Position numbers and translations under genes: made by a program. From Pelagibaculum spongiae (GTDB taxonomy: Bacteria; Pseudomonadota; Gammaproteobacteria; Enterobacterales; Pelagibaculaceae), in NCBI RefSeq assembly GCF_003097315.1, contig NZ_QDDL01000010.1:41969-105968 (forward strand): a stretch of DNA of 64,000 nucleotides, in the 5' to 3' direction. Below the pieces are notes generated by a model. That model did no database searches. It was not told the DNA's origin and was given only the letters and a program-made list of their open reading frames with translations. Each line of letters opens with the position of its first letter. The stretch's first letter is position 1. This document shows, piece by piece, positions 5,778 to 30,823 of this stretch.

Positions 5778-6507
5778 TTCCAATACCATTTTAATTGATG
5801 GCCAGGAGGTTCCTTTTGAACCAGGTGAAACCGTTCTGGCTGCGGCAAAAAAAGCAGATGTTTATATTCCACATCTTTGCTTTCATCCTGAAGTAACAGT
5901 TCATGGTAGCTGCAAGCTCTGTACAGTAAAAATAAATGGTCGCTGCGTATCTTCTTGCCTGACTAAAGCTTCATCGGGCATGGCTGTGGAAAACAGCAGC
6001 GAAGAAATTCTCGATTTGCGCAAGCAATTAATCGAGCTTTTATTTGCTGAAGGTAACCACTACTGCCCAACTTGCGAACTGTCAGGTAATTGTCAATTAC
6101 AGGCCTTGGCCTATGAATTTGGCATTACTCATACTCGCTTCCCACTGCAATATCCAATTCGGGAAATGGATGCAACGCATCCAGATATCATTCTCGATCG
6201 TGATCGTTGCATTAACTGTTCACTGTGTCGCCGTGCCAGTGCTCAGGTCGATAAAAAAGATGTCTTCTCGTTAGCTGGACGGGGTCCTGAGACTTATCTG
6301 CAGGTCCACTCTAGCGACGGTACTTTAGGCCAATCAAAACTTACTGTTGATGATTTAGCAGCAAACATTTGCCCCGTTGGCGCTTTATTCCATAAAAAGA
6401 ACAACTACAGCCAACGCCCTGGTCAACGGATTTATGACAATCAGTCGATCGGTGAAGTAGGCAACCAGCGTCTGGAACGAGTCAAAGAGGGTGAAAACCA
6501 TGGCTGA
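5770..6507 (+). CDS. hoxU: NAD-reducing hydrogenase diaphorase subunit HoxU (NuoG N-terminal-like 2Fe-2S/4Fe-4S ferredoxin)
   Basis: 2Fe-2S motif CFHPEVTVHGSCKLC. NuoG-type CPTCELSGNCQLQ. Ferredoxin CINCSLCRRAS and CPVGAL. Start overlaps the hoxF stop. Confidence 0.85.
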   Translation: MSNSNTILIDGQEVPFEPGETVLAAAKKADVYIPHLCFHPEVTVHGSCKLCTVKINGRCVSSCLTKASSGMAVENSSEEILDLRKQLIELLFAEGNHYCPTCELSGNCQLQALAYEFGITHTRFPLQYPIREMDATHPDIILDRDRCINCSLCRRASAQVDKKDVFSLAGRGPETYLQVHSSDGTLGQSKLTVDDLAANICPVGALFHKKNNYSQRPGQRIYDNQSIGEVGNQRLERVKEGENHG

Positions 6508-7042
6508 TCAAAAAATAAAGGTAGCCACCTGTTCTCTGGGCGGATGCTTTGGTTGTCACATGTCGTTACTAGACATCGACGAAGCACTGATCGAAGTTGA
6601 AAAACACGTTCAGTTCGATCGCTCACCCATTACCGATATCAAAAATATTTCTAAATGTGATTTAGGTTTAATTGAAGGCGGTCTGTGTAACGAAGAAAAT
6701 GTTCACGTACTAAAAGATTTCCGCGAGAACTGCAAAGTTTTAGTTGCTGTTGGTGCCTGCGCAATTAATGGTGGGTTACCTGCTATGCGCAATGGAATCG
6801 ATGTTCAAGATTGTCTGAAAGAGGTGTATCAAACCGGTTATAACCTAACCACTGATATTATCCCCGATGACCCGGAAATTCCGCGCTTACAAGAAAAAGT
6901 GCAACCGTTGCACGAACTGGTGAAAGTAGATTATTTCTTACCAGGTTGCCCACCACCTGCACCGGCTTTTCTTGAACTCATTACGGCACTGCTTGAAGGC
7001 CGCGAACCTAATATTGATTATCCACATAGGCGTTTTGACTAA
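6500..7042 (+). CDS. hoxY: [NiFe] hydrogenase small subunit HoxY (NuoB-like)
   Basis: ATCSLGGCFGCHMSLLD and GACAINGG...LPGCPP motifs of the NuoB/hydrogenase small subunit. ATG at 6500 (a GTG alternative at 6491). Overlaps the hoxU end. Confidence 0.85.
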   Translation: MADQKIKVATCSLGGCFGCHMSLLDIDEALIEVEKHVQFDRSPITDIKNISKCDLGLIEGGLCNEENVHVLKDFRENCKVLVAVGACAINGGLPAMRNGIDVQDCLKEVYQTGYNLTTDIIPDDPEIPRLQEKVQPLHELVKVDYFLPGCPPPAPAFLELITALLEGREPNIDYPHRRFD

Positions 7043-8520
7043 TGGAAAACCAAACGCAAGCTGGCCTCCGCCGTATCGCCATTGAGCCGATTTCCCGCGT
7101 AGAAGGCCACGGAAAAATTACTCTACTGCTTGACGACGAAGGTCATGTTAAGCAGGCACGTTTACACATTGTTGAATTTCGTGGATTTGAAAAATTCATT
7201 GAAGGCCGCCCTTATTATGAGCTGCCATTATTAGTTCAGCGCTTATGTGGTATTTGTCCGGTGAGCCACCATTTGGCAGCAGCCAAGGCAATCGACCAAA
7301 TTAACGGTGTTAAACAATTAACACCTGCGGCTTTAAAATTGCGCCAGTTGTTACACTGGGGACAATTATTACAGTCTCATGCACTGCACTTCTTCCATTT
7401 GGCATCACCTGATTTATTGTTTGGTTACGACAGCGATGTTAGCAAGCGTAATATTATTGGCGTGTTAAAAGAATATCCGGAAATTGCCGTCCAAGGCGTA
7501 AAAATCCGTAAATTCGGCCAAGAAGTTATTCGTGCTGTCAGTGGTAAACGTATCCACGGTATTGCAGCACTTCCAGGTGGCATGAACCAGCCGTTAGACC
7601 GCGAAGTTTATCAATACCTGACCGCTGAAATTGATCAAATCGTTGAGTGGAGCAAAGACGCCGTCGAATTGGCTCGTCGCTTGTGCCTAGAAGACACCGA
7701 ATTATTTAATTCGTTCGCTAGCACCGAATCACCTTATATGTCACTTACTGACGAAAAGGGCGGCCTAGAATTTTACGATGGTAACTTGCGTGTTAAAAAC
7801 GCTGACGGTTCGATCCTTAATGATCAGTTCCCGAATGAGCGTTACACCGACTTAATTCAGGAAGAAGCCAAGAGCTGGAGCTATATGAAGTTCCCATTCT
7901 TGCGCTCAATTCGTGAAGCGCAAGGTGGCGACTCTGGCTGGTATCGCGTTGGCCCATTGGCTCGAATTAATAACTGTGATTCTATTTCGACGCCTTTAGC
8001 CGAGCATTATCGTCAAGATTTTATGAAAATAGCGGGTAACCCGCTTGCGCATCAAAATCTGGCGTTCCACTGGGCACGAATGATTGAAGCATTGCACTGT
8101 GCAGAATCAATTCAGAAAGTGCTGGCAGATCCAGATCTGTTTAGCCTCGATTTAGTCGCTAAAGGCAATAGACAAAGCTCAGGTATCGGTATTATCGAAG
8201 CGCCTCGTGGCACCTTATTCCATCATTATGAAGTCAATGATGACGACCAAGTCACCATGGCGAATCTGATTGTATCGACTACTAGTAATAACTTTGCCAT
8301 GAACGAAGCAGTTTGTTCAGCGGCTAATCAGCATATTGATGGTAATGAAGTTACACCTGGCTTGTTAAATCTGCTAGAAGTTGCTGTGCGTTCTTATGAC
8401 CCATGTTTGTCTTGTGCTACCCACGCAATTGGTAAAATGCCGCTGCATGTGGAAATGCTCGATAGCAAAGGTCAGCTGATTCATCAATTAAGTAAAAATT
8501 CGAATGGTGAGTTTAGCTAA
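7042..8520 (+). CDS. hoxH: [NiFe] hydrogenase large subunit HoxH
   Basis: N-terminal Ni-binding RLCGICPVSHH and C-terminal DPCLSCATH motifs. A ~30-aa C-terminal extension beyond the His, consistent with protease processing. Confidence 0.9.
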   Translation: MENQTQAGLRRIAIEPISRVEGHGKITLLLDDEGHVKQARLHIVEFRGFEKFIEGRPYYELPLLVQRLCGICPVSHHLAAAKAIDQINGVKQLTPAALKLRQLLHWGQLLQSHALHFFHLASPDLLFGYDSDVSKRNIIGVLKEYPEIAVQGVKIRKFGQEVIRAVSGKRIHGIAALPGGMNQPLDREVYQYLTAEIDQIVEWSKDAVELARRLCLEDTELFNSFASTESPYMSLTDEKGGLEFYDGNLRVKNADGSILNDQFPNERYTDLIQEEAKSWSYMKFPFLRSIREAQGGDSGWYRVGPLARINNCDSISTPLAEHYRQDFMKIAGNPLAHQNLAFHWARMIEALHCAESIQKVLADPDLFSLDLVAKGNRQSSGIGIIEAPRGTLFHHYEVNDDDQVTMANLIVSTTSNNFAMNEAVCSAANQHIDGNEVTPGLLNLLEVAVRSYDPCLSCATHAIGKMPLHVEMLDSKGQLIHQLSKNSNGEFS

Positions 8521-11201: not shown

Positions 11202-12322
11202 TGAAACCTGCTAGATTGGAAAAAGAGCCAATAAAATAAAATAACGTAATGCGAATATAAGCTTGAACGGGAAACAAACATTTCAGAAATTATATCATTT
11301 CAAGCCTTAAAAACTGCCGCCATTGTATTCAGTTTGAGCGTCATAACAAGCTTTACTATTACCAATGCTTATTTCAAAACATTGGTAGCAGTGAAACCAC
11401 ACTGTCATCCTTTGCTTTTCAAACAAGCAAGATACCAATGGAAAACACTCCCTTTCTTGCCAAAGCTGGCATGTTGCTCGGTTTAATCATCGGCAGAATG
11501 TTAGGCGCTGATATTTGATGCATTGCAATGGGTTTGGGCGGGCTTTGGCTAGGAAATGTAATTAGCGCGATTATTTCTGGCGAAATCATCTCTTATATAG
11601 AAATCACCTGGGAGTCAGATGTTCGATATCAACGAGCGACACAGCCTTTCTCTTTTTGGCTTAATCTATTGATCGAATTTTTTGTGGGTGTAGTTGCAAT
11701 TTCTAGTACTTTTCCCAAAGACTTATATAAAGACTAAAAAAACGCCAACTACTGTTGATGCAGTAAAAGTGTCACCATGCTCGATGCTAAGCCAAATAAA
11801 TAAATAAAATAATTTACTTGTCTCTCTTAAGACTCATTTTGAACATGTAAATAGAATCGTAAATCAATCATGTTCGGCAACGCTCAAAATTCATATGATC
11901 AATCAACCACAAGAACCCCTGTAAAACTCCAGTTTAGTTGTGCAGGTGTTATTTATGTTTTTTGAGTTTCCTTAGTGCTCAATCTTTTCATTAAATCACT
12001 CTGAAAACATGGTTATGAGCGCTTACCATAGCTTCGCACTACGATTGATTTGTTGCGAAAGATTCTCATTTGCTTATGCCGAAATAATCTATCACAGAAA
12101 CTACATTCAAAACTTTAACTATTTCAATAGCAATTAGAAAAACCTAATGCAAAGAAGCACCTAACAAGAAAATATGTCGCATTATTTGTGATGACGAGCC
12201 AATAGTTTCAAAGCACACTGCGCGCAGCTTGTCACTTCATTAATAGCGCACACATATATCAGCTTGTCTTATTGATAACTGAGTGCAAGAACATTGACCT
12301 TAACTTCAGGAATAATCACCCT

Positions 12323-18834: not shown

Positions 18835-20412
18835 CTAAGTATTTGCAAGCAATTTAATTGAGTGTTCAAGCACCGCTACTTTATTTTTTATTTCTTCCTG
18901 TGGACTATTAGCAAATCCCAGCACCAAACCATATTCCTTAACACTGCCAAAATAATAACGACTTAATCGGGAATGAAAAACTTGCGCTTTTAGCAAGCTA
19001 CTGGATAGATCCGCTTCAAACTCCAAATTAGAAAAACCAGGTTTTAGCTGCAACACAACGTGCATTCCTGAGCCGCTATCGCTGACATCAAACCACTGCT
19101 TTAGGCTTTCACAGCAAGCTTGCATATGTTGCAGTTTTGCTGCGTAACTTTGACGACTCTTACGAAGGTGGCGCGCAAAATGTCCTTGCTGAATAAATTC
19201 AGCGGTTATTTTTTGGTTATGCAGCGGTGTTTCACCCGAATGAACATTTTTGGCTGCAACAAATACTGGCATCAAATCCTGCGGCAACACCAAATAACCT
19301 AGTCGTAATGATGGGAATAATACTTTGCTGAAGGAGCCCATATAGATCACTCGCTGATGATGATCTATACCCTGCAAGCTGGCTAATGGGCGAGACCGGT
19401 AGTGATACTCACTGTCATAATCATCTTCAACCACCCAGCAATCATGCTGGTTAGCCCATTCTAACAATGCCATTCGGCGCTCTAGCGGCATGACCGCACC
19501 GGTCGGGTATTGGTGGGTTGGTGTGCAATAAAGCAATCGGGTTTTAGCATCGGTTAATGCTGTTAACTGATTCACTTTAATACCCTGCTGATCAACCGAG
19601 CAGGTTTTTAATTGCGCCCCAGCCGACAACAAAGCGTGACGAGCACCCAAATAACCCGGCTCTTCAATAATCGCGTTATCTTCAGGTTGAATTAACAGTC
19701 GAGAAGTTAAATCCAGAGCTTGTTGCGCACCATTAGTAATCAAAATTTGCTCAGGATTACATATTACCGAGCGAGCACTCTTTAAATATTCAGCAATGGC
19801 CGCCCTTAATTCTGGTAATCCCTGGGGGTCGGAATAACCCATTAATGAAATCAGACTTTTGCTAGGAATTTGTTGAGACAACCGGTTCCAAATTTTATGA
19901 GGAAAGTTTGCAAGATCAGGCACACCTACGGCAAAGCCCGTACCAGCACTTCCATCAGCACCACTATTAGTAACAACGGGAATGGTTCGGCCATATTTTA
20001 CAGCATTGTTATCGGGTAATTTTCTATTGACTGAAACTGGCTTTGAATCGGCAACCGTTATTGAGTCAGCCAAGCGGCGCGCCTCAATCCAATTCTCCGG
20101 CAGCTGGCGAGCAACAAAAAAACCAGCACCCACTCGTGATTCCAAATAGCCTTCAGCTTGCAGCTGCTGATAAGCGCTAATTACCGTATTCCTTGAAATG
20201 GCCAACTCTTTTGCTAGCACCCTTGAGGAAGGTAAACGCATAGCATTGGTCAGATAACCATTGAGGATTTTCTGCCTCAGCCCTTGGTAAAGCTGCTGGT
20301 GCAAAGGCATATCTGCCCGCTTATCAAGACCCAAAACATGCATCTCTAGCAATGACTGCTTCATAAATTGGTACCTATTAAATTTACAAATCGGATCTAC
20401 TGAAGGCTCCAA
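18835..20412 (-). CDS. MocR/PdxR-type regulator (GntR HTH + class-I aminotransferase-like domain)
   Basis: GntR HTH LPSSRVLAKELAISRNTVISAYQQL. PLP-fold C-domain with the catalytic-lysine region SFSKVLFPSLRLGY. The true start may be an internal ATG. Confidence 0.8.
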   Translation of the reverse strand: MEPSVDPICKFNRYQFMKQSLLEMHVLGLDKRADMPLHQQLYQGLRQKILNGYLTNAMRLPSSRVLAKELAISRNTVISAYQQLQAEGYLESRVGAGFFVARQLPENWIEARRLADSITVADSKPVSVNRKLPDNNAVKYGRTIPVVTNSGADGSAGTGFAVGVPDLANFPHKIWNRLSQQIPSKSLISLMGYSDPQGLPELRAAIAEYLKSARSVICNPEQILITNGAQQALDLTSRLLIQPEDNAIIEEPGYLGARHALLSAGAQLKTCSVDQQGIKVNQLTALTDAKTRLLYCTPTHQYPTGAVMPLERRMALLEWANQHDCWVVEDDYDSEYHYRSRPLASLQGIDHHQRVIYMGSFSKVLFPSLRLGYLVLPQDLMPVFVAAKNVHSGETPLHNQKITAEFIQQGHFARHLRKSRQSYAAKLQHMQACCESLKQWFDVSDSGSGMHVVLQLKPGFSNLEFEADLSSSLLKAQVFHSRLSRYYFGSVKEYGLVLGFANSPQEEIKNKVAVLEHSIKLLANT

Positions 20413-20466: not shown

Positions 20467-21159
20467 ATGAGCCAACTAGAAGTGACCGAAAAAACCAGAA
20501 TCCGTAGAGGTCCAAAGCGAGCAGTATTTGACCGCGCTATTTTAGAACAGGTTTTTAATCAGGCGCATGTCGCCCACGTTGGTTTTATTCAAGATGATCC
20601 ATCGGGAGAAGGTTTATCGGGAAAAATCCAGCCATTTGTCATTCCAATGCTTTGCTGGATTGATGGCGATTTATTATATGTCCACGGTGCCAGTTCCAGC
20701 CGCATGATAAAAACACTCACGGGTGGCAGCGAAGCTTGCGTCACTGCGACTATTCTCGATGGAATGGTACTGTCAAAAAGCGCTTTTCATCATAGCGCTA
20801 ATTACCGCAGCGCAATGGTTTTCGGGCAATTCTTTTTAATTGAAAATCCAATAGAAATTAACCGCCAATATAAAATATTTATGGAAAGAATTGCACCCGG
20901 CCGCTGGGATGAAGTTCGCCCACCATCAGAGATTGAATTAAAAGCGACTAAAATGCTGGCAATTAAACTGGACCAAGCATCGGTAAAAGTCCGCAGCGGT
21001 GGCCCCAACGAAGATAAAGAAGACTTGGATATACCGGCATGGACCGGTGAAATGGTCATCAAGCACCCGCTAACAGCGATGGTCGCTGACCAGCATTCAA
21101 CAGATGGGATAAAGGTACCGGATTATAGTGAGGCTTGGGATGATCGCTGGAGGGTGTGA
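20467..21159 (+). CDS. pyridoxamine-5'-phosphate-oxidase-like FMN-binding protein
   Basis: Split-barrel PNPOx-like family. Divergently transcribed from the MocR regulator, the typical pdxR-type arrangement. The 3' ~315 bp is duplicated downstream. Confidence 0.65.
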   Translation: MSQLEVTEKTRIRRGPKRAVFDRAILEQVFNQAHVAHVGFIQDDPSGEGLSGKIQPFVIPMLCWIDGDLLYVHGASSSRMIKTLTGGSEACVTATILDGMVLSKSAFHHSANYRSAMVFGQFFLIENPIEINRQYKIFMERIAPGRWDEVRPPSEIELKATKMLAIKLDQASVKVRSGGPNEDKEDLDIPAWTGEMVIKHPLTAMVADQHSTDGIKVPDYSEAWDDRWRV

Positions 21160-21184
21160 AGTTTAACTTTCAATACTTTTAAAG

Positions 21185-21925
21185 TTACTCATGCACAATG
21201 GTTTTTTTCCAAATATTTGGTCGAGAAGATAAAGAGCAGCCGATTCTAAACCCTGCAGAAAAAGAACTGCGACAAAAATTACAATGTAATTTTTGATGTT
21301 TATTATTAGAATTTGCCATTAATTCTACGAGATCTTTTAGGCTTTTTCCTACTCGACCAACCCGGTATCTCACAGTGATAATATCTCTACTTGCACCTTC
21401 AAGCAGCATCGAACTGCTATATGAACGTCGGACTTCTTCATAAGTTTCCCACCAGTCATCCGCAGACAAGCCTCCAGTTTCATTGGGATCGCTGATGAAG
21501 GGCTTGGCTACAGCACCAAATAAATCACCAAAACTTGATCCATGGTAACCTTGGAATTTACTCAAACCATAGTTTCTACACTCAGAACCAGGTTTAAAAG
21601 TTTCATAAGGCGTCAATCTTTTACCTTCTTTCAAACTAGTCAGTTCTGAAAGAGTATTAATATCGCTTAGTAATGAATGTCTATCAGGCACATAAAAACT
21701 TATTTCTATATTATCAGGAACAATAAAATGCTGCTGCGTCAGCGATTGCGATCCGTGACTACTTATCACAAACTCGTCAGATTGCTTCTGTCCCTGCCAC
21801 AAGTAAAAATTTTTACCTAAATCTGTTTTTTGTATCATTAGCAAACTCCGACGTATTAAAATTATGCCGGAGAAAACATTACCGCATCTATACAAAAAAC
21901 AATCATTTTTAACGATAAATTCCAT
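21185..21925 (-). CDS. hypothetical protein (orphan cargo ORF within insertion)
   Basis: 246 aa with no recognisable motifs. It sits inside the ~1.4-kb insert bounded by the direct duplication. The start may be the internal MIQKT. Confidence 0.4.
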   Translation of the reverse strand: MEFIVKNDCFLYRCGNVFSGIILIRRSLLMIQKTDLGKNFYLWQGQKQSDEFVISSHGSQSLTQQHFIVPDNIEISFYVPDRHSLLSDINTLSELTSLKEGKRLTPYETFKPGSECRNYGLSKFQGYHGSSFGDLFGAVAKPFISDPNETGGLSADDWWETYEEVRRSYSSSMLLEGASRDIITVRYRVGRVGKSLKDLVELMANSNNKHQKLHCNFCRSSFSAGFRIGCSLSSRPNIWKKTIVHE

Positions 21926-22088
21926 GTTCAGTTTTTATTTTGAGAACTAATACTCAAAACAAAAATAAATAAGTGACAGTATGAATGAAATAATCACAAA
22001 AAGCTCATTCTACTTTAGCACTTCATTAATATACGAAAGAGGCGCTGAATAACGCATTTATCCATGTTCATACGCTTCCTAGTGGAAT

Positions 22089-22520
22089 TTGTCATGGCAT
22101 CACGCAGATATTGCTCAATTGTATTCGTTAAGGTGGTTAGTCGAGGTTTTTATTCAGGACTGGAAAGCGCATGGTGGCTGGAACAAGATGAGCAAAGAAG
22201 GATCGGAGCGAGGCCTGATCCTGAGCCTGTTGTGCGAGCATTTATTGTTGCTGCATCCTGAGCAATCAGCCCGACTTAAAAACAAGCAGCCCGGGTTGCC
22301 CGCTGGTTGTCTGATAGAGCGCCTTAAAACGGAAGCATTGATCGATACGGTGAAGTCTGTGGTGAATGCGAAAGATCCTGATATTGCACTGAATGATTTA
22401 ATTGATGGTTTGGAATTGGTTTTGCCTACCCGGGAATCCAGTCGGCATATGGCGGGCAGAGATCTGGGTAATCAAGAACCAAAACCGTCTTTAATTCGTT
22501 ATGCACAACATAACGCATGA
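22089..22520 (+). pseudogene. IS4-family transposase C-terminal fragment (remnant)
   Basis: YSLRWLVEVFIQDWK matches the Y-x2-R-x3-E-x6-K motif of IS4/IS5 DDE transposases. Only ~140 aa, so the DDE N-region is missing. Confidence 0.6.
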
Positions 22521-22562
22521 TTTAAGGAATTGTGCAACCGTTAAAAACTGCAGCATCGAGTA

Positions 22563-22871
22563 ATAGAAATTAACCGCCAATATAAAATATTTATGGAAAG
22601 AATTGCACCCGGCCGCTGGGATGAAGTTCGCCCACCATCAGAGATTGAATTAAAAGCGACTAAAATGCTGGCAATTAAACTGGACCAAGCATCGGTAAAA
22701 GTCCGCAGCGGTGGCCCCAACGAAGATAAAGAAGACTTGGATATACCGGCATGGACCGGTGAAATGGTCATCAAGCACCCGCTAACAGCGATGGTCGCTG
22801 ACCAGCATTCAACAGATGGGATAAAGGTACCGGATTATAGTGAGGCTTGGGAGGATCGGTGGCGGGTGTGA
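22563..22871 (+). pseudogene. duplicated 3' fragment of the PNPOx-like gene
   Basis: ~315 bp near-identical to 20850..21165. It encodes the C-terminal 92 aa, with D->E and 3 nt differences at the extreme end. Confidence 0.8.
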
Positions 22872-22888
22872 GGCTTAATGTGTATTAG

Positions 22889-22915
22889 AAAGGGCCGAGT
22901 TAATTCGGCCCTTTC
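22889..22915. terminator. bidirectional rho-independent terminator
   Basis: aaagggccga GTTAA ttcggcccttt. Confidence 0.65.
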
Positions 22916-22930
22916 GGTATCTAACAATTA

Positions 22931-24862
22931 TTAATTCAAAGAAACTTCGTCAGAATCTAGCCATATTGTTAGCGGATAATATCTGATATTTTCTTCTGTT
23001 GCCTGCTTTAAAGCTTGCAGAGAGTTCTCTTGGTTAATGGAAAATGACCATAAATCTGTCTCCGCTTTAGAGTATCCGCCATAGTTTGAACCTGCTGTCT
23101 TTTCGCGCATTCCAATTAGATAAAAACCTGAAGGATCAACCGTTCTTTGCCCACCTACAGGATAATAACCAACCGGGTAGTTACCCAGCTCTAGAACGCC
23201 ACCATCTTCTGCTGAAATCTGCAGTAAGGTATTGCTAAGTTCATGTTCAACAGTAAACAGCAATGGTTCATTTCGATAAGCTTTATTTTTAATCAAATCG
23301 TCTAGATAAACATTATTGACTCTATTTCCTGCTGCAATAACAGAGTGAGTCATATTCGTAAGATCTAAACGAGTCAATTGTTGATTATTGTTATCCACCC
23401 GCTGATCGATATATACATATCGTGAGTGATTTTTATCCAAATGATAGTTTCCGATAATCCCTTCGAAGTTACCCAAATCTTCAAAGCCTGCTGTCAGGCT
23501 ATTGATGTCAATTCGCGCAACAGCTGTTTGCTGGTCATTTTTCTGATAGAAAACAAATAATTTTGTTTCATATTTAGCAACGGTAATGCTGTATTCATCC
23601 AAAAAACTACTCGTTGAAATAATGTGTAGCCGAGCTGTTTGCAGCTGCCCATCCATAGCAATTGAATGCAACTGCAACGCTGTCACTGTACTGTCTGCAT
23701 TTCTTTGCAATTCAGCTGCCAAGAAATGATTATTAATCACTAGTACGGGGCTGTCTTCCGACAAAGACATGGAAGCTTCAACCTTTAATGGCTGAGGAAA
23801 AACTCCCTGACGTAACTGCTCTTTACTGACCAGAATTGCACCTTCGTTTCTTCCCTGTAGCAATGCAAACTCTGCTGTAGTGGCCAGAGGGTCAAGGTAG
23901 TCCATGTCCCAAGAATCATTCGGATCATCAAAATAAAGACTGCTCAGCAACTTTTCTGCATTGTCCAATACATCAACTTTAATTGTTCGAGTCTGCGATG
24001 CATCAGGCTGCCAATTTTCATCCAGCCGCAGCCCTAGAAAATCTTCATTGTTTGCCGTTAAAACTTGCTCAATGAGCCTGTCTGTTCCATTTTTATTGCT
24101 ATCAACAAAAATGACACTATTAAAATTCTGCCCTAAATACTCACCTTGTAAATTGGTTGGTAAGGCAATGCTGCTAGCATTCATATCGCTGGTGATTGCA
24201 AAGATTGGGTCGTCATCGGTATTGCACTTTTGATCTACACCAGATTTTTGATAAACAACATAATGACCTGGTGATTCTCCAGAGAGAGAGCATGCCTGAG
24301 TTTCAATTGTCACTTGCTCGTTATTACCTGATGCCAGAGAGGTACGAAACACACGCCCCTGATTAAGGTAATAAACCTCACTACTGTAATGAAGCATCAG
24401 TGGATCAATAGAAAAATGTTGTTCCCAAGCACCATCAGTATAAAGGCTAGGTGTTGTATTACTCCCATCCCAGCCATAGTAAGGTGACAGATCCATATCA
24501 TTGGTTTTCTGATGCTGGCCATCTGCTTTGCGATACAACCACAGTTCAGCTTTAGCCGCTTGTGAGTCATATTTTACATATGGTAGATATTTAAATTCAC
24601 CGCCCGGACCAGAAATAAAGCGACCAAGCTTTGTGTCATTCGTTGGGTCTGGATCTGGGGTTGGATCAACGACCGGATCAACGACCGGATCAACGACCGG
24701 ATCAACGACCGGATCAACGACCGGATCAACGACCGGATCAACGACCGGATCAACGACCGGATCCGATGCTTTATCGGAGTTCGATCCACCGCCACAAGCG
24801 GCTAATGAAAGAGATAAAAGTATTATGGCTGTTATTCTGCCGAGCTTTTCTGGATGCTTCAT
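22931..24862 (-). CDS. large secreted lipoprotein with (DPVV)x8 tandem repeat
   Basis: Lipobox LSLAAC. 12-bp repeat ggatcaacgacc x8 (24663-24758) encodes DPVV repeats followed by DPTPDPDP. Rest of the protein is uncharacterised. Confidence 0.65.
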   Translation of the reverse strand: MKHPEKLGRITAIILLSLSLAACGGGSNSDKASDPVVDPVVDPVVDPVVDPVVDPVVDPVVDPVVDPTPDPDPTNDTKLGRFISGPGGEFKYLPYVKYDSQAAKAELWLYRKADGQHQKTNDMDLSPYYGWDGSNTTPSLYTDGAWEQHFSIDPLMLHYSSEVYYLNQGRVFRTSLASGNNEQVTIETQACSLSGESPGHYVVYQKSGVDQKCNTDDDPIFAITSDMNASSIALPTNLQGEYLGQNFNSVIFVDSNKNGTDRLIEQVLTANNEDFLGLRLDENWQPDASQTRTIKVDVLDNAEKLLSSLYFDDPNDSWDMDYLDPLATTAEFALLQGRNEGAILVSKEQLRQGVFPQPLKVEASMSLSEDSPVLVINNHFLAAELQRNADSTVTALQLHSIAMDGQLQTARLHIISTSSFLDEYSITVAKYETKLFVFYQKNDQQTAVARIDINSLTAGFEDLGNFEGIIGNYHLDKNHSRYVYIDQRVDNNNQQLTRLDLTNMTHSVIAAGNRVNNVYLDDLIKNKAYRNEPLLFTVEHELSNTLLQISAEDGGVLELGNYPVGYYPVGGQRTVDPSGFYLIGMREKTAGSNYGGYSKAETDLWSFSINQENSLQALKQATEENIRYYPLTIWLDSDEVSLN

Positions 24863-25474: not shown

Positions 25475-28400
25475 TTAGTTCTGCTGCAAGTCATCACCAA
25501 TCTTCTTCACTCGTTGCCAAATATCATGATCCATTTTCAACTTGTGATCCATTGCTTTTACTACCGGTAGCAATGAAGTTTCGATGGTATTTGCCAGCGC
25601 TTGTAGCACTTTGTCGATACCCGGTTGTGGCTGGTTAATCACTTCAACATTAGGTCTGGAGTGCGCGAATGACTGAGACAGCACTGTAGCAAAATCAACC
25701 TCGGAAATGTGCTGCAGTTGCTGTTTTAACTGTGAGATTTCTCTGCTGATTTCAGCTGAACCATTATCAATATTCGACATTTTCTGCAACTGACTGGCAA
25801 TTACCGATAGCTGTGAAACCGCCTGTGCAGTCGGATCATCCTGATCACCCAAGGTACGGAGGCGCTTGTACTCAGAGCAAATTTCACCCCAGCGCAAACT
25901 TTCTACTTCCGTTAACACACCCCGCAGCTGCTTTAATTTCAGTACGTTTTCTTCGGCACCTGTGGTGAGTGTTTGCGCTTCACCTTTGTAGTGGTCATCG
26001 ATCAGTTGTTCTAGCTCTTGATCATTCATTACCGCACTGACTTTTTCCGACAACCGCGCCATATTGCGATAACTACCTTGCAAACGAAACGGCGGTTCTT
26101 CCCGGTAACGATCATCTTGCGCTGCAGAAGCAATATATTGCTGATTCACCGCTAACAAGACTTGCTGCACTCGTAAGAGTTTTTTCAATACGCCGGTAAT
26201 TTCATCTAACTCGGCGGCGGCATATTCATGGCCAAGATCATCGGTCGATATCGCTTCGCCTCGTGCCAAATCAATCAGCAGATAAATGTCGGCCATATCC
26301 CGATTTACTAGCGGTCGTAATACTTCATTGCTGGCCAGCGCATTTTCAACATAACTGAGTGAGAAGGCATTTTCAGAACCACCAACCAAATCACCCAGGT
26401 TATAAATATCAGCCCGGTTGGCAAGCATATCGGGTATCGAGAAGGCTTCGCCGGATTCGGTATAGGGATTGCCCGCCATTACAACGCAAAAGCGTTTACC
26501 GCGCATATCGAAAGTACGTGGCTCACCATTAATGACACCTTCAATCCTACGGGTACCGTCACAAAGCGAAATAAATTTCTGCAAAAACTCTGGGTGCGTA
26601 TGCTGAATATCATCCACCACCAGCATCACATTATTACCCATTGCCAATGCCAGATTTAATCTTTCCAGCTCACGAGCAGCACCAGAATCAGGGGCTAAAG
26701 CAGGATCCAATGAAGTGGTTTTATGCCCCAAGGCTGGGCCATTGACCTTGATAAACACTAACCCTAAACGGCTGGCGATATATTCCACTAAAGTAGTTTT
26801 ACCGTAACCGGGCGGTGAAATTAATAACAACAAACCTGACCGGTCGCTATTACTATTGCCGCCCGCTGCGCCTAATTGCTTGGCTAAGTTAGCGCCTACT
26901 AACGGCAAATAAACTTGGTTGATTAATTTGTTTCGAACAAAACCACTCATGGGTTTAGCTTGATATTCTTCCAGCTTCAGCGCTTCACGTCTGTCAGACA
27001 AAGCTTTCTGTCGCTGCTTTTGATAACCCTTGAAACCTGGAACCAGCTGGAAACGGAAATGATTTAACCGCTGTTCAAATTCATCAACTGCCAATGACAA
27101 CTGGCCATTTTTAATCGTGGAATGCTCAGACAATAAACCGTCTACCGAAACCTGAGACTGCATCGGCCAAACCCGGCGGTTTAATTTGCTTTCATCAATC
27201 AACAATACTGCTGCTTCGGCAATATAACGATTGGCAGTCGATCCATCATCAATCGAATCTTGCGCACCAATTAAAGCACCCAGCCATTGGCTGGCCACAA
27301 TAAACTGCTGATTAATGGAAAGGCTTTTTAACAGATCTTTAAATGCTGACTGCTGTTTGGCCGCTGCCAGCTGTTGTTGTAACTGCTCTGCCAGCTGCTG
27401 CGCCAGCTCACTGGTTGTGAACTCCAGCCGCTGATTACCTGACGCATCGACCGCGAACTCTGCAATTAACCAGGCTGCGGCATCTCTTGCCAACACCAGT
27501 GGATAGCCCTGACTTTCTCCACCCAAATGGTTCAGCTGGATTTCAATTGATTGCTGCAGTTTTAACTGCAAGCTTTCAACTGCCGATCTGGCATTGAACA
27601 ACAGCTGCATTCGACTGGCATTGGCAGCTTCAATGAGCCATTGCTGCTGATCAGAACGGCTTTGTTGCATCCACCACAATTGCGCCAGTGCTCTGGGCAA
27701 AGGAGCAAACCTTAAAAGACCGGCATTGGCGCGTAATGGCAATAATTGTTCAAGAATTTTACAGGCATCATGATCATGAATACCTTTGGCATAGCTATCC
27801 TGGTAGCGCTTGGAGGCGAACTTGCTAACCTGGCTCAATAACTCACCTTCAGAAAGTGCTTGCTCCAGCCCAGGCAAAGTCAAAGAGTGGGTTTGCTTTT
27901 CTGCCGCATCAATAATTTCTGCAACCAAATATTCGGCTCTGGCAACCTCAGCATTTTCTGAAACTAATGGCTGGTCAGCATATAAATGATCGCTTTCTGC
28001 CAGAGTCGAATAGTGTTTTGCCAGCTTTTCGTAATAATCACTGCCAGTTAAATGAAATTTAAGCTGATCATTTTGACGAATCAGGGTTAATTCCATCGGC
28101 CGGGTATTTACATTAAATTTGTAATCACCCAGTTTGATAATTCGCCCACCATCTTCGAACAAATCAGAACGATCTCTAAGCGAACGAAGCGCCTGGTCGC
28201 GAGCTGAATTTAATTTACCAGATAATTCATCTGCCAGAACGACGGCTTCAAGCTGACGCATTTGATCAATCAAGCCGCGCAGCTTATGTACCATGGCATC
28301 GCCAGAGAACCAGGCGTTTAATGCATCAGCTGTATCAAACTTTTCAGATTTTTGAGCAATTGACTGGAAAATACGTTCTGCAGCTTTTTTCAGGTTGTCG

Positions 28401-30823
28401 GCCCTGCGCTGCCGAGCTTCCACCAAAGACTGACGCCGTGTCTGAAACAGACCCAGCATTTCTTCACGGCGTACAATTAAATCAGATAAAAATTCATCAT
28501 GATCGGCAAAGCGACTTTCCAGCTCTTCCAGCTGCGCCATTACCCCAGCTTGTTGCTGGTCACAGTCAGCGGGTGTTTCTGCCTGCTCCAGCGCCGATTC
28601 AACGGTTTGTTCCAATAAACGGAACCGGGCAGAAAACTCTCCAGCGGCTTCTTCAGCGCCTATCGACTTTCCGCGCTTGCGAGCGATTGCACGCAACTGA
28701 TTTAACTTGCCCCAGACCTCAGACAAGGCCTCAAGGATTTTGCTGCGTTTTTCCGGGTCCGCAACTTCCAGACCGGCCATCATTTCATTAACCAGCTGTA
28801 ATTGCTGATTGACCTTTTCCAGGTCTTTTTGCACCTGTTCTAATTCAAGCAGTTTTTCAGCCGCTGTTATCTGTTGCTCCAGATCGGTAATCGACTGGTT
28901 CCAGTCAGCAAAAGCGTCATCTGCTGAAAGCGCAGCAATGGTTTGCTTTTCCTGCTGTGCTTGCTGCTTTTCGAGCTGTTGTTGCAGCTGCTCTAACGCT
29001 GCAAGATCAATATAGCGCTGCTCTTGCAGAGTAATTAAATGACCACCTAACTGGCGCATTTGATCGAGTGAATCGACCAGCTCTTGTGGTGACTTTGGCG
29101 GCCGGGAGCGCAGCTGACTAAATAACTGATCAATTTTTGCAGATGCATCAGATAAAGCTTTTTGCGCTTTTTCACGAATGGCCCGTGCTTTTTCATACTC
29201 ATCGAGCAGCTTTTCTGAAGCAGCACTTAAATTACGAACCTGATCAGCCAGGTTAGTACTTTCAGCAGCAACCAATTCTGCTTCACCTAACCAGTGGAAA
29301 TTATCCAGCAGTTTACGTGCATCATTTAATAGTCCGTGATAATGCTCGGTAGATACCGCTTTTTGGTCGGCAAGGGTATCGCCAGAACTACCTCTGCGGG
29401 CACTGCGGCATAATCCAAATAATTCGGAAATACCCCGCACTAATTCAGCATTACCAATTCGCCCCATCACCCCTGAAACCGTCTCCCCGGTTTCGTGGGT
29501 GTCGGCATAAAATGGCGTATGCCAAATCTGCATTGGATGCACCCGGCTAGGTTGGTCATTTTCAGCGCGGAAAATAACCATTAAACCATCTTCAAATAAA
29601 CCATAACCATGGCCAAACAAAGGGGTTTGTAAGCTTTTTTCTATCAGGTTATAGGAAAATAACGCACTAATACCTTGCTGCTGTTCATGGAAGAAATATA
29701 AAACATCTTCACCATTGGGTGAGCGCAAGGCACGTTCAAAAACTAATCCATCTGGAATATCGCTAAATCGCCGACAATCACCACCCTGCAAGCTATAGCC
29801 GCCGGGGAAAATAATGCCGTGGTCTTCTGGTAATGAAACACACGATTGACCGATTTCATCAAACCGCTGAACATCACGCGTTAGGCAGTTATATATTAAA
29901 TAGCGGAAATCATCTTCACGGTATGGGCGAATTTTCAGCAGAATTAACTGGCCGACTTTGGCATAGAAAATTTCAGCATCATCTAGCGATTGATGCTCAT
30001 CATTTACCGGTTCTCGATAAATCCCTTGACCATCTTCGGTATTATTCTCGATTTTAATGGTTAACTGACCATTAATGGTTTCAACAAAAATAGTATCGAG
30101 AATATTAATATGTGGGTAGCGCCCTAACTCCTGGCTTTCTCGAGTGGTCGCTGTCCATTCAAAATCATGCGCCGGTGGCGTTGGTAAATCGCGCTCACCG
30201 CGGTTATCAATATATTTTAACTGTTTGTTCTCAGGGTCAGAACTTCTCAGCCAGCGAAATACCCGAATATCACTCAGCCGCGCACCAATCTGAAAAACAG
30301 CTAAAACTTTGTCATGCAATTTATGAAATTGCAGTAACCGGGCTTCTTTGTAGTAACTAAATAATTCATTAAAATCATCAACAAAAACCGAATCATCAAG
30401 AAAACTATGATCCTGATATAGCTCGATTTCATGCCCTTGCTCGGTTTGCACTAATTTATACAATGCAAAAACATCTGAAACTTCAGTGTTTTTCTTTAAA
30501 CCTAGTTGGACATTAAAACCCAACATCAGCATATCGCCAACACGCGCCATATCCCGCGGAATACAGTTGTGTTCAGTTCTCACTCTCACTCTGCCTAGCA
30601 AATTCATTTCTTGCTGGCCAAAGGCATCACTTCTGGACTGATTTAGCTTTTCTGAATGTTCACGTAGTTTGGTTGCCTGCTGTTGCAAGCGTTTATTCAA
30701 TAGATCCCAGGCGCCGCTGGCAGCAACGGATAACCCTAATCCATCATCTCTATCGTCTGCACCATCTACAAGATCGGTTTGCGGCTGTTGGCCAAGCACA
30801 GTTTCTGACATAGAAAACCTCAT
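25475..30823 (-). CDS. giant (1782 aa) coiled-coil protein with internal AAA+ ATPase core (MoxR/dynein-like)
   Basis: Walker A ISPPGYGKTTLVEYI. Walker B NVMLVVDDIQ. Sensor-1-like FCVVMAGNPY. ~700 aa of Q/E/L-rich coiled coil N-terminal to the ATPase. Immediately downstream of flotillin and NfeD-like genes. Confidence 0.75.
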   Translation of the reverse strand: MRFSMSETVLGQQPQTDLVDGADDRDDGLGLSVAASGAWDLLNKRLQQQATKLREHSEKLNQSRSDAFGQQEMNLLGRVRVRTEHNCIPRDMARVGDMLMLGFNVQLGLKKNTEVSDVFALYKLVQTEQGHEIELYQDHSFLDDSVFVDDFNELFSYYKEARLLQFHKLHDKVLAVFQIGARLSDIRVFRWLRSSDPENKQLKYIDNRGERDLPTPPAHDFEWTATTRESQELGRYPHINILDTIFVETINGQLTIKIENNTEDGQGIYREPVNDEHQSLDDAEIFYAKVGQLILLKIRPYREDDFRYLIYNCLTRDVQRFDEIGQSCVSLPEDHGIIFPGGYSLQGGDCRRFSDIPDGLVFERALRSPNGEDVLYFFHEQQQGISALFSYNLIEKSLQTPLFGHGYGLFEDGLMVIFRAENDQPSRVHPMQIWHTPFYADTHETGETVSGVMGRIGNAELVRGISELFGLCRSARRGSSGDTLADQKAVSTEHYHGLLNDARKLLDNFHWLGEAELVAAESTNLADQVRNLSAASEKLLDEYEKARAIREKAQKALSDASAKIDQLFSQLRSRPPKSPQELVDSLDQMRQLGGHLITLQEQRYIDLAALEQLQQQLEKQQAQQEKQTIAALSADDAFADWNQSITDLEQQITAAEKLLELEQVQKDLEKVNQQLQLVNEMMAGLEVADPEKRSKILEALSEVWGKLNQLRAIARKRGKSIGAEEAAGEFSARFRLLEQTVESALEQAETPADCDQQQAGVMAQLEELESRFADHDEFLSDLIVRREEMLGLFQTRRQSLVEARQRRADNLKKAAERIFQSIAQKSEKFDTADALNAWFSGDAMVHKLRGLIDQMRQLEAVVLADELSGKLNSARDQALRSLRDRSDLFEDGGRIIKLGDYKFNVNTRPMELTLIRQNDQLKFHLTGSDYYEKLAKHYSTLAESDHLYADQPLVSENAEVARAEYLVAEIIDAAEKQTHSLTLPGLEQALSEGELLSQVSKFASKRYQDSYAKGIHDHDACKILEQLLPLRANAGLLRFAPLPRALAQLWWMQQSRSDQQQWLIEAANASRMQLLFNARSAVESLQLKLQQSIEIQLNHLGGESQGYPLVLARDAAAWLIAEFAVDASGNQRLEFTTSELAQQLAEQLQQQLAAAKQQSAFKDLLKSLSINQQFIVASQWLGALIGAQDSIDDGSTANRYIAEAAVLLIDESKLNRRVWPMQSQVSVDGLLSEHSTIKNGQLSLAVDEFEQRLNHFRFQLVPGFKGYQKQRQKALSDRREALKLEEYQAKPMSGFVRNKLINQVYLPLVGANLAKQLGAAGGNSNSDRSGLLLLISPPGYGKTTLVEYIASRLGLVFIKVNGPALGHKTTSLDPALAPDSGAARELERLNLALAMGNNVMLVVDDIQHTHPEFLQKFISLCDGTRRIEGVINGEPRTFDMRGKRFCVVMAGNPYTESGEAFSIPDMLANRADIYNLGDLVGGSENAFSLSYVENALASNEVLRPLVNRDMADIYLLIDLARGEAISTDDLGHEYAAAELDEITGVLKKLLRVQQVLLAVNQQYIASAAQDDRYREEPPFRLQGSYRNMARLSEKVSAVMNDQELEQLIDDHYKGEAQTLTTGAEENVLKLKQLRGVLTEVESLRWGEICSEYKRLRTLGDQDDPTAQAVSQLSVIASQLQKMSNIDNGSAEISREISQLKQQLQHISEVDFATVLSQSFAHSRPNVEVINQPQPGIDKVLQALANTIETSLLPVVKAMDHKLKMDHDIWQRVKKIGDDLQQN

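What the first reader, a model, noticed from the sequence alone, without database searches (positions are those of the whole stretch)
20850..22878. ~315-bp direct duplication of a gene 3' end bracketing a 1.4-kb insert with orphan ORF and IS4 transposase remnant
The last ~315 bp of the PNPOx-like gene (20850-21165) recur at 22563-22878, differing only at the extreme 3' end (DDRWRV vs EDRWRV). Between the copies lie a 246-aa orphan ORF on the minus strand and a C-terminal fragment of an IS4-type transposase (Y-R-E-K motif). A rho-independent terminator follows the second copy. The pattern resembles integration of a mobile element that brought its own variant of the target gene's 3' end, or an IS-mediated duplication, followed by decay. 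The orphan ORF has no recognisable domain.
Basis: seen in the sequence. Interest (0 to 1): 0.55.

Follow-up and report, generated by a model that had tools for sequence, protein, structure and literature searches.

The report
Insertion-sequence scar with duplicated gene end
A flavoprotein gene was once split by a jumping gene, and a later recombination put an intact copy (with a small toxin-like gene) next to the leftover fragment. It is a real but ordinary genome scar.

Summary
The repeat is real. Window 20850-21141 equals 22562-22853 (292 nt, 100%). A further 26 nt follow with 5 substitutions, then homology stops.

The key new fact is that copy 2 begins at the base after the right terminus of an IS4/IS701-type insertion sequence (...AAAAACTGCAGCATCGAGT, ending at 22561). 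Three related IS copies end at the same point. Copy 2 is therefore the orphaned distal part (codons 129-230) of a PNPOx-like gene split by an IS insertion. It is not an att-type repeat.

The IS keeps only its right ~550 bp. No left inverted repeat is detectable.

Copy 1 belongs to an intact 230-aa gene with a variant tail (DDRWRV against EDRWRV). It is followed 25 nt later by a convergent 217-aa gene.

That gene is not an orphan. It is a PF21527 "Stv" protein, 100% identical to a Pelagibaculum spongiae protein, from a family proposed to be secreted toxins.

Best reading: two haplotypes were joined by recombination, one junction lying inside the IS. One haplotype was intact gene + variant tail + Stv. 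The other was the IS-split gene + native terminator.

Which route made the join cannot be resolved, because no close relative exists in any collection searched.

Ordinary; low interest.

The parts
18835..20412 (-). MocR/PdxR-type regulator (GntR HTH + aminotransferase fold), transcribed divergently from the PNPOx-like gene. Conserved partner; context only.
   Evidence: Pfam GntR + Aminotran_1_2. tblastn gave 27 alignments to the MocR-type regulator among the 80 fetched PNPOx loci; the ones displayed lie just upstream on the opposite strand.
20467..21159 (+). Intact 230-aa PNPOx-like flavoprotein gene (PF12900 Pyridox_ox_2), ending ...AWDDRWRV*.
   Evidence: Pfam E 1.5e-31. Full-length alignment at 57-61% identity to Endozoicomonadaceae homologues. 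The C-terminal PDYSxAW..RW motif is kept.
20850..21167 (+). Repeat copy 1, the 3' part of the intact gene. 20850-21141 is identical to copy 2. 21142-21167 is the variant tail (5 substitutions).
21185..21838 (-). 217-aa Stv-domain gene, convergent with the PNPOx-like gene. Its stop codon lies 25 nt from that gene's stop codon, with no terminator between them. Putative secreted toxin/effector.
   Evidence: PF21527 E 2.5e-25. 100% identical to the 217-aa 'putative adhesin' of Pelagibaculum spongiae. Family-invariant H28, G29, Y90, K94, R157 and C189 are all present. The inter-gene region folds no better than shuffles, z -0.37.
21839..22013 (.). AT-rich (about 30% GC) spacer upstream of the Stv gene. 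It contains the junction between the Stv segment and the truncated IS. The exact breakpoint is not resolvable.
   Evidence: Composition. No transposase similarity left of about 22014. No significant left inverted repeat.
22014..22561 (+). Left-truncated remnant of an IS4/IS701-superfamily insertion sequence. It has three parts. 22014-22088 is decayed, with two in-frame stops and a 5-codon insertion. 22089-22520 is an open C-terminal transposase fragment with the YREK motif. 22532-22561 is the right inverted repeat, ending ...ATCGAGT.
   Evidence: tblastn/BLASTP. The IS end is conserved in L082, L083 and L001 and diverges immediately after ATCGAGT. Terminal inverted repeats of full copies. Profile HMM of IS ends hits 22532-22561 at E 4e-7. 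Family assignment.
22562..22879 (+). Repeat copy 2, the orphaned distal fragment (codons 129-230, ending ...AWEDRWRV*) of a PNPOx-like gene split by the IS. It starts at the first base after the IS terminus.
22888..22915 (.). GC-rich hairpin between the gene fragment and the convergent 643-aa lipoprotein gene (22931-24862, minus strand). Probably a bidirectional terminator of the native arrangement.
   Evidence: strand folding: -22.1 kcal/mol (z -4.2) on the + strand and -20.9 kcal/mol (z -5.5) on the - strand. Not listed by the consensus scan because the T-run is short.

Best explanation
The locus is a recombination scar that joins two versions of the same chromosomal site.

**The two versions**
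- Version 1 had the PNPOx-like gene split between nt 383 and 384 (window 20849^20850) by a ~1.5-kb IS4/IS701-type insertion sequence. Its distal half kept the native tail (EDRWRV), the hairpin terminator and the lipoprotein gene downstream.
- Version 2 had an intact gene with a diverged last 26 nt (DDRWRV). A Stv toxin-like gene followed it immediately, in convergent orientation.

**How they were joined (most likely route)**
Version-2 DNA was recombined into a version-1 chromosome. One crossover was homologous, in or upstream of the proximal half of the gene. The other join was illegitimate and lay inside the IS. This is the outcome expected of homology-facilitated illegitimate recombination, or of double-strand-break repair using a foreign template.

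**What the single event explains**
- It removed the left ~950 bp of the IS.
- It restored an intact flavoprotein gene next to its MocR-type regulator.
- It imported Stv.
- It left the old distal gene fragment behind as a 318-bp direct repeat.

**Shown**
- The repeat and its exact edges.
- Copy 2 abuts the IS terminus.
- The IS is left-truncated.
- The identity of the three coding pieces.

**Inferred**
- That there were two haplotypes.
- The order of events.
- Which side was resident.
- That the second join was illegitimate rather than a later deletion.
For: 1. Copy 2 starts at 22562, the base after ...TAAAAACTGCAGCATCGAGT. The same terminal sequence ends three independent IS copies (L082, L083, L001), and their flanks diverge immediately after it. 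In L001 and L083 this sequence is the right arm of 29-32-nt terminal inverted repeats. A profile HMM of the ends hits only 22532-22561 in the window, at E 4e-7.
2. The IS remnant covers only transposase residues ~285-451 of ~456. No left inverted repeat is found anywhere in the window.
3. Copy 1 is continuous with the proximal half of a full-length, well-conserved gene.
4. All 5 differences between the copies cluster in the last 26 nt. Two of the three coding changes are synonymous and the third is D/E. Both tails keep the family's conserved ...AW..RW motif. This fits two functional alleles better than decay.
5. The copy-2 tail is followed by a strong hairpin shared with a convergent gene, which looks like a settled native arrangement. 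The copy-1 tail runs straight into Stv with no terminator, which looks like a recent junction.
6. Stv is an accessory gene. It has only 181 distant relatives in 1.84 billion representatives, the nearest at 47%. It is plasmid-borne in Shigella. None of the 80 other PNPOx loci has it next door.
Against: - No related genome with an empty, IS-only or Stv-only site could be found. The best PNPOx homologue is 61% identical and two metagenome scans were empty. The two parental haplotypes are therefore inferred, not seen.
- The donor and recipient must be identical over 292 nt yet 19% different over the next 26 nt. That needs an earlier recombination breakpoint in one lineage, or later gene conversion between the copies.
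- Microhomology at the illegitimate junction cannot be checked without the parental sequences.
- The IS remnant carries stops and indels near its left edge while copy 2 shows no decay. This needs either a recent event or homogenisation by gene conversion.
Confidence: 0.5

Rival explanations
1. Campbell-type integration of a circle. In another lineage the IS sat in the gene and Stv lay downstream (A-IS-B-tail'-Stv). A circle containing [part of IS - B - tail' - Stv] formed. It could have arisen by illegitimate excision. Alternatively it arose by recombination between two flanking IS copies, with later loss of the IS left part. A single homologous crossover within the 292-nt stretch then inserted the circle into an intact resident gene.
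For: It gives exactly the observed order, with copy 2 starting at the IS end and the resident tail and terminator after copy 2. It places the crossover inside the identical 292 nt. The unit is a clean 1712-bp period. Small mobile carriers of stv are known in Shigella.
Against: It needs more steps: IS insertion in the donor, circle formation, transfer and integration. The 1.7-kb unit has no replicon, recombinase or second IS end. It still requires two lineages identical in B but different in the tail.
Confidence: 0.2
2. Deletion between two paralogous copies in one genome. The chromosome once carried two direct copies of the gene. One was intact and followed by Stv. The other was IS-split and followed by the terminator. 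An illegitimate deletion from upstream of Stv to the interior of the IS removed everything between them. Ongoing gene conversion keeps the repeat interiors identical while the unconverted edge diverged.
For: It needs no horizontal transfer. Gene conversion typically homogenises the interior of repeats and spares their edges. This would explain 0/292 against 5/26 differences. It would also explain the lack of decay in the non-functional copy 2 next to a decayed IS edge.
Against: No second full copy or other trace of a duplication exists in the 64-kb window. PNPOx homologues are single next to their MocR partner in the loci examined. A 19% divergence at the edge implies a long time. Over that time a 143-codon open transposase fragment would be unlikely to survive; my estimate is a few per cent chance of no stop codon.
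Confidence: 0.12
3. Site-specific integration of a small genomic island into the 3' end of the gene. The island carries a substitute 3' end, as in the phage 21 / e14 - icd paradigm, and then decayed.
For: Direct repeats bracket an insert that carries an accessory gene. The upstream copy has a variant 3' end that keeps the reading frame and a functional-looking C-terminus.
Against: There is no integrase or recombinase gene or remnant in the insert. The repeat's left edge coincides to the base with an IS terminus, which this model leaves as a coincidence. Substitute 3' ends normally differ from the host copy along their length, not only in the last 26 nt.
Confidence: 0.05
4. Assembly artefact. 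The loop B-tail'-Stv-IS remnant-B is a mis-resolved repeat or a mixed population in a short-read draft assembly.
For: The genome appears to be a draft: the matching NCBI protein is on a 147-kb contig. A 292-nt exact repeat is hard for short reads. Read data are not available here.
Against: The path is the only linear way through the graph implied by the sequence. The unique segment leaves copy 1 through its own tail and re-enters at the IS|B junction. The IS|B junction and the two different tails are real sequence features that need a biological origin in any case.
Confidence: 0.05

Closest known systems
IS4/IS701-superfamily insertion sequences (relatives: a 1534-bp element on Methylomagnum ishizawai plasmid pRS11DPr2, and decayed copies in marine metagenome assemblies)
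   Same: DDE transposase C-terminus with the Y-2-R-3-E-6-K signature. 48% identity to the Methylomagnum transposase and 60-72% to many metagenomic fragments. A conserved terminal inverted repeat, ACTCGAT...AGTTTTTA.
   Different: Only the right third survives. There is no left end, no DDE core and no target duplication to read. Scores are below the curated cut-offs of every NCBIfam IS4/IS701 model, so the exact family is not settled.
Homology-facilitated illegitimate recombination (one homologous anchor plus one illegitimate join), described for naturally transformable bacteria and for E. coli conjugation (PMC3240628). It has been invoked for the displacement of T6SS effector modules in Vibrio cholerae (PMC5361080).
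   Same: The outcome matches. Foreign or accessory DNA sits next to a conserved anchor gene. One side is seamless and homologous, and the other ends abruptly inside unrelated DNA (the IS). Remnants of the previous occupant are left behind.
   Different: The process itself is not observable here. Parental sequences, microhomology at the join and competence of this organism are all unknown. I took only titles and abstracts from these papers.
Prophage/island integration into the 3' end of a protein gene with a substitute 3' end (phage 21 and e14 in icd; from my own knowledge)
   Same: Duplicated gene 3' end bracketing an insert. The upstream copy is completed by a variant end.
   Different: No integrase. 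The repeat edge is defined by an IS terminus. Variant positions are confined to the last 26 nt.
Stv-domain proteins (Pfam PF21527; De Silva et al., bioRxiv 10.1101/2022.08.23.504947)
   Same: The 217-aa protein matches the domain end to end (E 2.5e-25). It keeps the conserved His and Cys that the authors liken to a caspase-like dyad. As the authors reported, no solved structure gives a convincing match.
   Different: It is a stand-alone chromosomal copy in a sponge-derived marine bacterium. It is not on a small plasmid or at the C-terminus of an Rhs-type protein. No function has been tested for any member.

Membership tests
IS4/IS701-superfamily insertion sequence | DDE transposase with the C-terminal Y-(2)-R-(3)-E-(6)-K signature | tested here: met
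   YSLRWLVEVFIQDWK at 22119-22163. BLASTP 48% identity to residues 306-451 of a 456-aa transposase. Weak Pfam DDE_Tnp_1 and NCBIfam IS4 hits.
IS4/IS701-superfamily insertion sequence | Complete transposase gene including the DDE catalytic core | tested here: not met
   Only residues ~285-451 are represented. tblastn with full-length and longer relatives finds nothing further left.
IS4/IS701-superfamily insertion sequence | Two terminal inverted repeats | tested here: not met
   The right repeat is present at 22532-22561 (E 4e-7). No left repeat was found by pattern search, PWM, local alignment or profile HMM.
IS4/IS701-superfamily insertion sequence | Score above the curated cut-off of a specific family model (IS4 or IS701) | tested here: not met
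   The full-length Methylomagnum relative scores 81 bits on transpos_IS701 (cut-off 150) and 56 bits on transpos_IS4_4 (cut-off 250). Superfamily membership only.
IS4/IS701-superfamily insertion sequence | Short target-site duplication flanking the element | not testable with these tools
   The left junction no longer exists in the window.
Integrase-mediated island/prophage inserted in a gene 3' end | Tyrosine or serine recombinase gene within or next to the insert | tested here: not met
   The ORFs in 21160-22561 are Stv and the transposase fragment only.
Integrase-mediated island/prophage inserted in a gene 3' end | Direct repeats are att sites whose extent is set by the element's attP homology | tested here: not met
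   The left edge of copy 2 is the IS terminus to the base.
Homology-facilitated illegitimate recombination product | One seamless homologous side and one abrupt non-homologous junction | tested here: met
   The gene is continuous through 20849/20850. IS homology stops at about 22014, with no IS end there.
Homology-facilitated illegitimate recombination product | Short microhomology between donor and recipient at the illegitimate join; donor and recipient sequences identifiable | not testable with these tools
   No related genome is available.
Composite transposon / IS-borne translocatable unit | Two IS copies (or one complete IS) bounding the passenger segment | tested here: not met
   The window holds a single truncated copy and no other copy.
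Stv domain family (PF21527) | Match above Pfam gathering score over the whole domain, with conserved His and Cys | tested here: met
   90 bits against a cut-off of 24.2, profile positions 2-121 of 121. H28 and C189 are invariant in a 40-sequence alignment.
T6SS cargo effector | Genetic linkage to vgrG/PAAR/hcp or an adaptor gene | tested here: not met
   No T6SS gene was found among the window ORFs scanned. Only the nearest homologue P0199 lies directly upstream of vgrG in a T6SS cluster. Two other homologues have no such neighbours on short contigs.

The most novel reading that the evidence does not exclude
The 1712-bp unit (gene 3' fragment, variant tail, Stv and IS remnant) may be the integrated form of a minimal mobile cassette. 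An IS would have captured the distal part of a conserved chromosomal gene. That captured fragment would now serve as a homology 'address', letting the toxin-like Stv gene enter and leave chromosomes by RecA-dependent single crossover. It would repair IS-damaged copies of the gene as it enters. A lesser version is that this is a natural case of an IS-inactivated gene being healed by homology-facilitated illegitimate recombination, with a toxin gene co-imported.
Probability: 0.1. Interest if true: 0.5.

Novelty: new member of a known kind. Interest (0 to 1): 0.22.

Why it matters
This is a tidy, base-resolved example of how an IS insertion, homologous recombination and an illegitimate join can leave a long direct repeat. 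Such a repeat looks like an attachment site but is not one, which is a useful caution for automated island and prophage callers.

It also shows that an IS-inactivated gene can be replaced by an intact allele without removing the debris, and that a small toxin-like accessory gene (Stv) came along with it.

The 292-nt direct repeat makes the Stv segment prone to loss by recombination, so strain-to-strain variation is expected here.

None of this changes current understanding of IS biology or recombination.

Tried and rejected
1. **Empty-site comparison.**
   - Exact look-ups of the PNPOx and Stv proteins found no contig.
   - The genome scan and the protein search gave nothing closer than 60-61% identity.
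   - Two exact-match metagenome scans, one with a repeat-internal 26-mer and one with the IS-end 22-mer, found nothing.
   - No related strain could therefore be examined.
2. **A left inverted repeat.** This would make the insert a complete IS-derived cassette.
   - A look-alike at 21187-21210 overlaps the Stv stop codon. Another lies at 21919-21940.
   - Neither beats shuffles convincingly.
   - The profile HMM gives E 84 for the second and nothing for the first. Both were rejected.
3. **A long target-site duplication from sister-chromatid transposition.** Rejected because the sequence after copy 1 does not match the sequence after copy 2, and the IS lacks its left end.
4. **PNPOx-Stv adjacency elsewhere.** This would identify a donor arrangement. 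None was found in 80 loci.
5. **Structure-based function for Stv.**
   - The AlphaFold model has pLDDT 79.8.
   - Foldseek against PDB gave nothing at E <= 0.001.
   - No sequence match to any solved chain.
6. **T6SS linkage of Stv.** Seen in one homologue's locus only. Two further look-ups gave short, uninformative contigs.
7. **Other IS copies or a second PNPOx copy in the window.** None.
Full report
**1. The observation**

The repeat exists as described. The repeat finder reports a two-copy family with a start-to-start spacing of 1712 nt.

MAFFT shows 20850-21141 identical to 22562-22853, which is 292 nt. The next 26 nt are 21/26 identical. These cover the last six codons, the stop codon and eight bases beyond it. 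After that there is no similarity. blastn gives 317 nt at 98.4%, E 6e-158.

The five differences are GAT/GAG (D/E), CGC/CGG (synonymous), AGG/CGG (synonymous) and two bases just after the stop. All five lie in the last 26 of 318 positions. By chance this has a probability of about 4e-6 (my arithmetic). The frayed edge is therefore a recombination or conversion boundary, not random decay.

**2. What the pieces are**

*The gene and its partner.* Copy 1 is the end of an intact 230-aa PF12900 (Pyridox_ox_2) flavoprotein gene at 20467-21159.
- Its nearest homologues are Endozoicomonadaceae proteins at 57-61% identity over their full length.
- It is transcribed divergently from a MocR/PdxR-type regulator at 18835-20412. 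tblastn gave 27 alignments to this regulator among the 80 PNPOx loci fetched, and the ones displayed lie just upstream on the opposite strand.

*The "orphan" ORF.* It is not an orphan.
- It matches Pfam PF21527 (Stv) at E 2.5e-25 over the whole profile.
- From its second ATG (21838, preceded by GGAG) it gives a 217-aa product. This is 100% identical to a protein NCBI calls "putative adhesin [Pelagibaculum spongiae]". That identifies the source organism.
- The family is small. It has 181 representatives at E <= 0.001 among 1.84 billion, and the nearest is 47% identical.
- It has invariant His, Gly, Tyr, Lys, Arg and Cys positions, all kept here.
- The only paper on it argues from domain architectures that Stv is a secreted toxin domain with a His-Cys dyad. 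The architectures are the C-termini of Rhs proteins and pairing with C80 peptidases. The paper notes that the "adhesin" label is unsupported (bioRxiv 10.1101/2022.08.23.504947).
- My model (pLDDT 79.8) has no convincing solved-structure match, as those authors also found.
- The nearest homologue lies directly upstream of vgrG in a T6SS cluster. No T6SS gene turned up among the window ORFs I scanned.

*The transposase fragment.*
- ORF 22089-22520 aligns to residues 306-451 of a 456-aa transposase on a Methylomagnum plasmid at 48% identity.
- It aligns at 60-72% to many short, evidently decayed metagenomic fragments.
- It carries the Y-2-R-3-E-6-K signature.
- Weak similarity continues left to about 22014, with two in-frame stops and a five-codon insertion.
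- The full-length relative scores best on IS701 models and next on IS4 models, always below cut-off. I call it IS4/IS701 superfamily.

**3. The decisive anatomy**

The DNA after the transposase stop codon was compared in the window and in three related IS copies. All four end ...CAACnnnTAAAAACTnnnnnATCGAGT and diverge at the next base.

In the two copies that are complete, this sequence is the right arm of 29-32-nt terminal inverted repeats. In the Methylomagnum element these bound 1534 bp.

In the window the terminus is at 22561, and copy 2 of the repeat begins at 22562. The start of the duplication is therefore the insertion point of an IS in the gene, between the equivalents of 20849 and 20850 (codon 128/129, inside the Pfam domain). 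Copy 2 is the distal part of a gene that the IS had split.

A profile HMM built from six IS ends finds only this right end in the 64-kb window, at E 4e-7. Two look-alike left ends, at 21187 and 21919, are not significant. No other part of the IS is present. The IS is therefore truncated on its left, and the junction with the Stv segment lies somewhere in the AT-rich 21839-22013.

**4. How it most likely arose**

An intact gene and an IS-split fragment of the same gene cannot descend from one molecule by a single simple step. In addition, the two tails are different alleles. Both keep the family's ...AW..RW C-terminal motif, and two of the three coding changes are synonymous.

The tail of copy 2 sits in what looks like the settled native context. 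A strong hairpin at 22888-22915 is shared with a convergent lipoprotein gene. The tail of copy 1 runs into the Stv gene after 25 nt with no terminator. No other PNPOx locus examined has Stv beside it.

The most economical account has two steps:
- (i) An IS inserted into the gene of the resident chromosome.
- (ii) DNA from a close relative, carrying an intact allele with a variant tail and Stv, replaced the proximal side. One crossover was homologous, in or upstream of the proximal half of the gene. The other was an illegitimate join inside the IS.

This is the product expected from homology-facilitated illegitimate recombination. That process has been described for transformable bacteria and for E. 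coli conjugation (PMC3240628). It has also been invoked for the displacement of toxin modules in Vibrio (PMC5361080; abstracts only).

The second step alone accounts for the truncated IS, the restored gene, the arrival of Stv and the stranded 3' fragment.

**5. Rivals**

- *Campbell-type insertion.* A circle [IS part - B - variant tail - Stv] inserted by one crossover within the 292 nt gives the same map. It needs more steps, and the unit has no replicon, recombinase or second IS end.
- *Deletion between two paralogous copies, with gene conversion.* Conversion would keep the repeat interiors identical. This explains the sharp 0/292 against 5/26 contrast and the undecayed state of the non-functional copy 2. 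However, there is no trace of a second full copy. The implied age also fits poorly with a 143-codon open transposase fragment.
It fails on two tested features: there is no recombinase, and the repeat edge is set by an IS terminus.
- *Assembly artefact.* This cannot be excluded without reads. It would not remove the IS|gene junction or the two distinct tails.

**6. Weak points**

- No close relative of this organism is present in any collection available here. The parental haplotypes, the exact breakpoint, any microhomology and the direction of transfer are therefore all inferred.
- All models have one awkward fact to explain. The two alleles are identical for 292 nt and about 19% different in the next 26. 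This needs either an older recombination breakpoint near the end of the gene in the Stv-bearing lineage, or later gene conversion between the copies.

**7. Comparison, novelty, verdict**

Every component belongs to a known kind:
- an IS4/IS701-type remnant;
- a PNPOx-like gene with its MocR partner;
- a described though uncharacterised toxin-like domain;
- a recombination scar of a familiar type.

The value of the case is as a clean illustration that a long direct repeat of a gene's 3' end bracketing an accessory gene need not be an attachment site. It also corrects the "no recognisable domain" call.

The 292-nt repeat should make the Stv segment unstable, which is testable. I rate it a new member of a known kind, with interest about 0.2.

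Noticed in passing
L084:5001-5621 and neighbours (metagenome contig ERZ25069412): The nearest homologue of the window's Stv protein (P0199, 47% identity) lies immediately upstream of vgrG, a DUF6931 gene and a PAAR gene. It sits beside hcp and vipA/vipB. This is a typical position for a T6SS cargo effector. The Stv preprint proposes a secreted toxin. None of the passages of that preprint returned by my term search mentions a T6SS; I did not read it in full.
   Followed up: partly
window 24639-24794: About 10 near-perfect tandem copies of a 12-nt unit (GGATCAACGACC) lie inside the 643-aa lipoprotein gene (22931-24862, minus strand). They encode a (PVVD)n tract just after the lipobox. This is a likely length-variable surface linker.
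   Followed up: no
window 25475-30823 (- strand): A 1782-aa protein with an N-terminal DUF3686 ('ATPase involved in DNA repair', E 1.6e-185), a DUF7902 and a C-terminal AAA module. It is followed by 697-aa and 216-aa ORFs with no Pfam match. Function unknown.
   Followed up: no
window 34124-34786 (+ strand): A 220-aa ORF with a Peptidase_C58 (YopT-like cysteine protease effector) domain, E 1.8e-11. This is another effector-like gene in what is otherwise housekeeping chromosome.
   Followed up: no
protein search of the transposase fragment; L082:4001-4543, L083:3092-4687: Almost all 77 database relatives of this transposase are 80-250-aa C-terminal pieces rather than ~450-aa proteins. In L082 the copy is cut off by an ISL3-type element. 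In L083 it is broken into several ORFs. This IS lineage seems to survive mostly as decayed copies in marine and host-associated bacteria.
   Followed up: partly
L002:6188-7902: In the closest PNPOx locus (an Endozoicomonadaceae MAG) the divergent MocR-type regulator is split into 327-aa and 141-aa ORFs. It is probably a pseudogene there, or an assembly error.
   Followed up: no
window 20467-21159; The P. spongiae Stv protein is in the big protein collection. The intact 230-aa PNPOx-like protein of the same locus is not: there is no hit above 61% and no exact record. Either it is annotated differently (or as a pseudogene) in the public record, or it was withheld. Not resolved.
   Followed up: no
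window 4086-8520: A four-gene cluster. It comprises a NuoF-like FMN/Fe-S subunit, a NuoG-like Fe-S subunit, a 20-kDa small subunit and a NiFe-hydrogenase large subunit. This is the layout of a soluble bidirectional (Hox-type) hydrogenase.
   Followed up: no
window 11298-11317 (- strand): This is the second-best hit of the IS-end profile HMM (E 0.058, model positions 11-30 only). It is probably chance and was not examined further.
   Followed up: no
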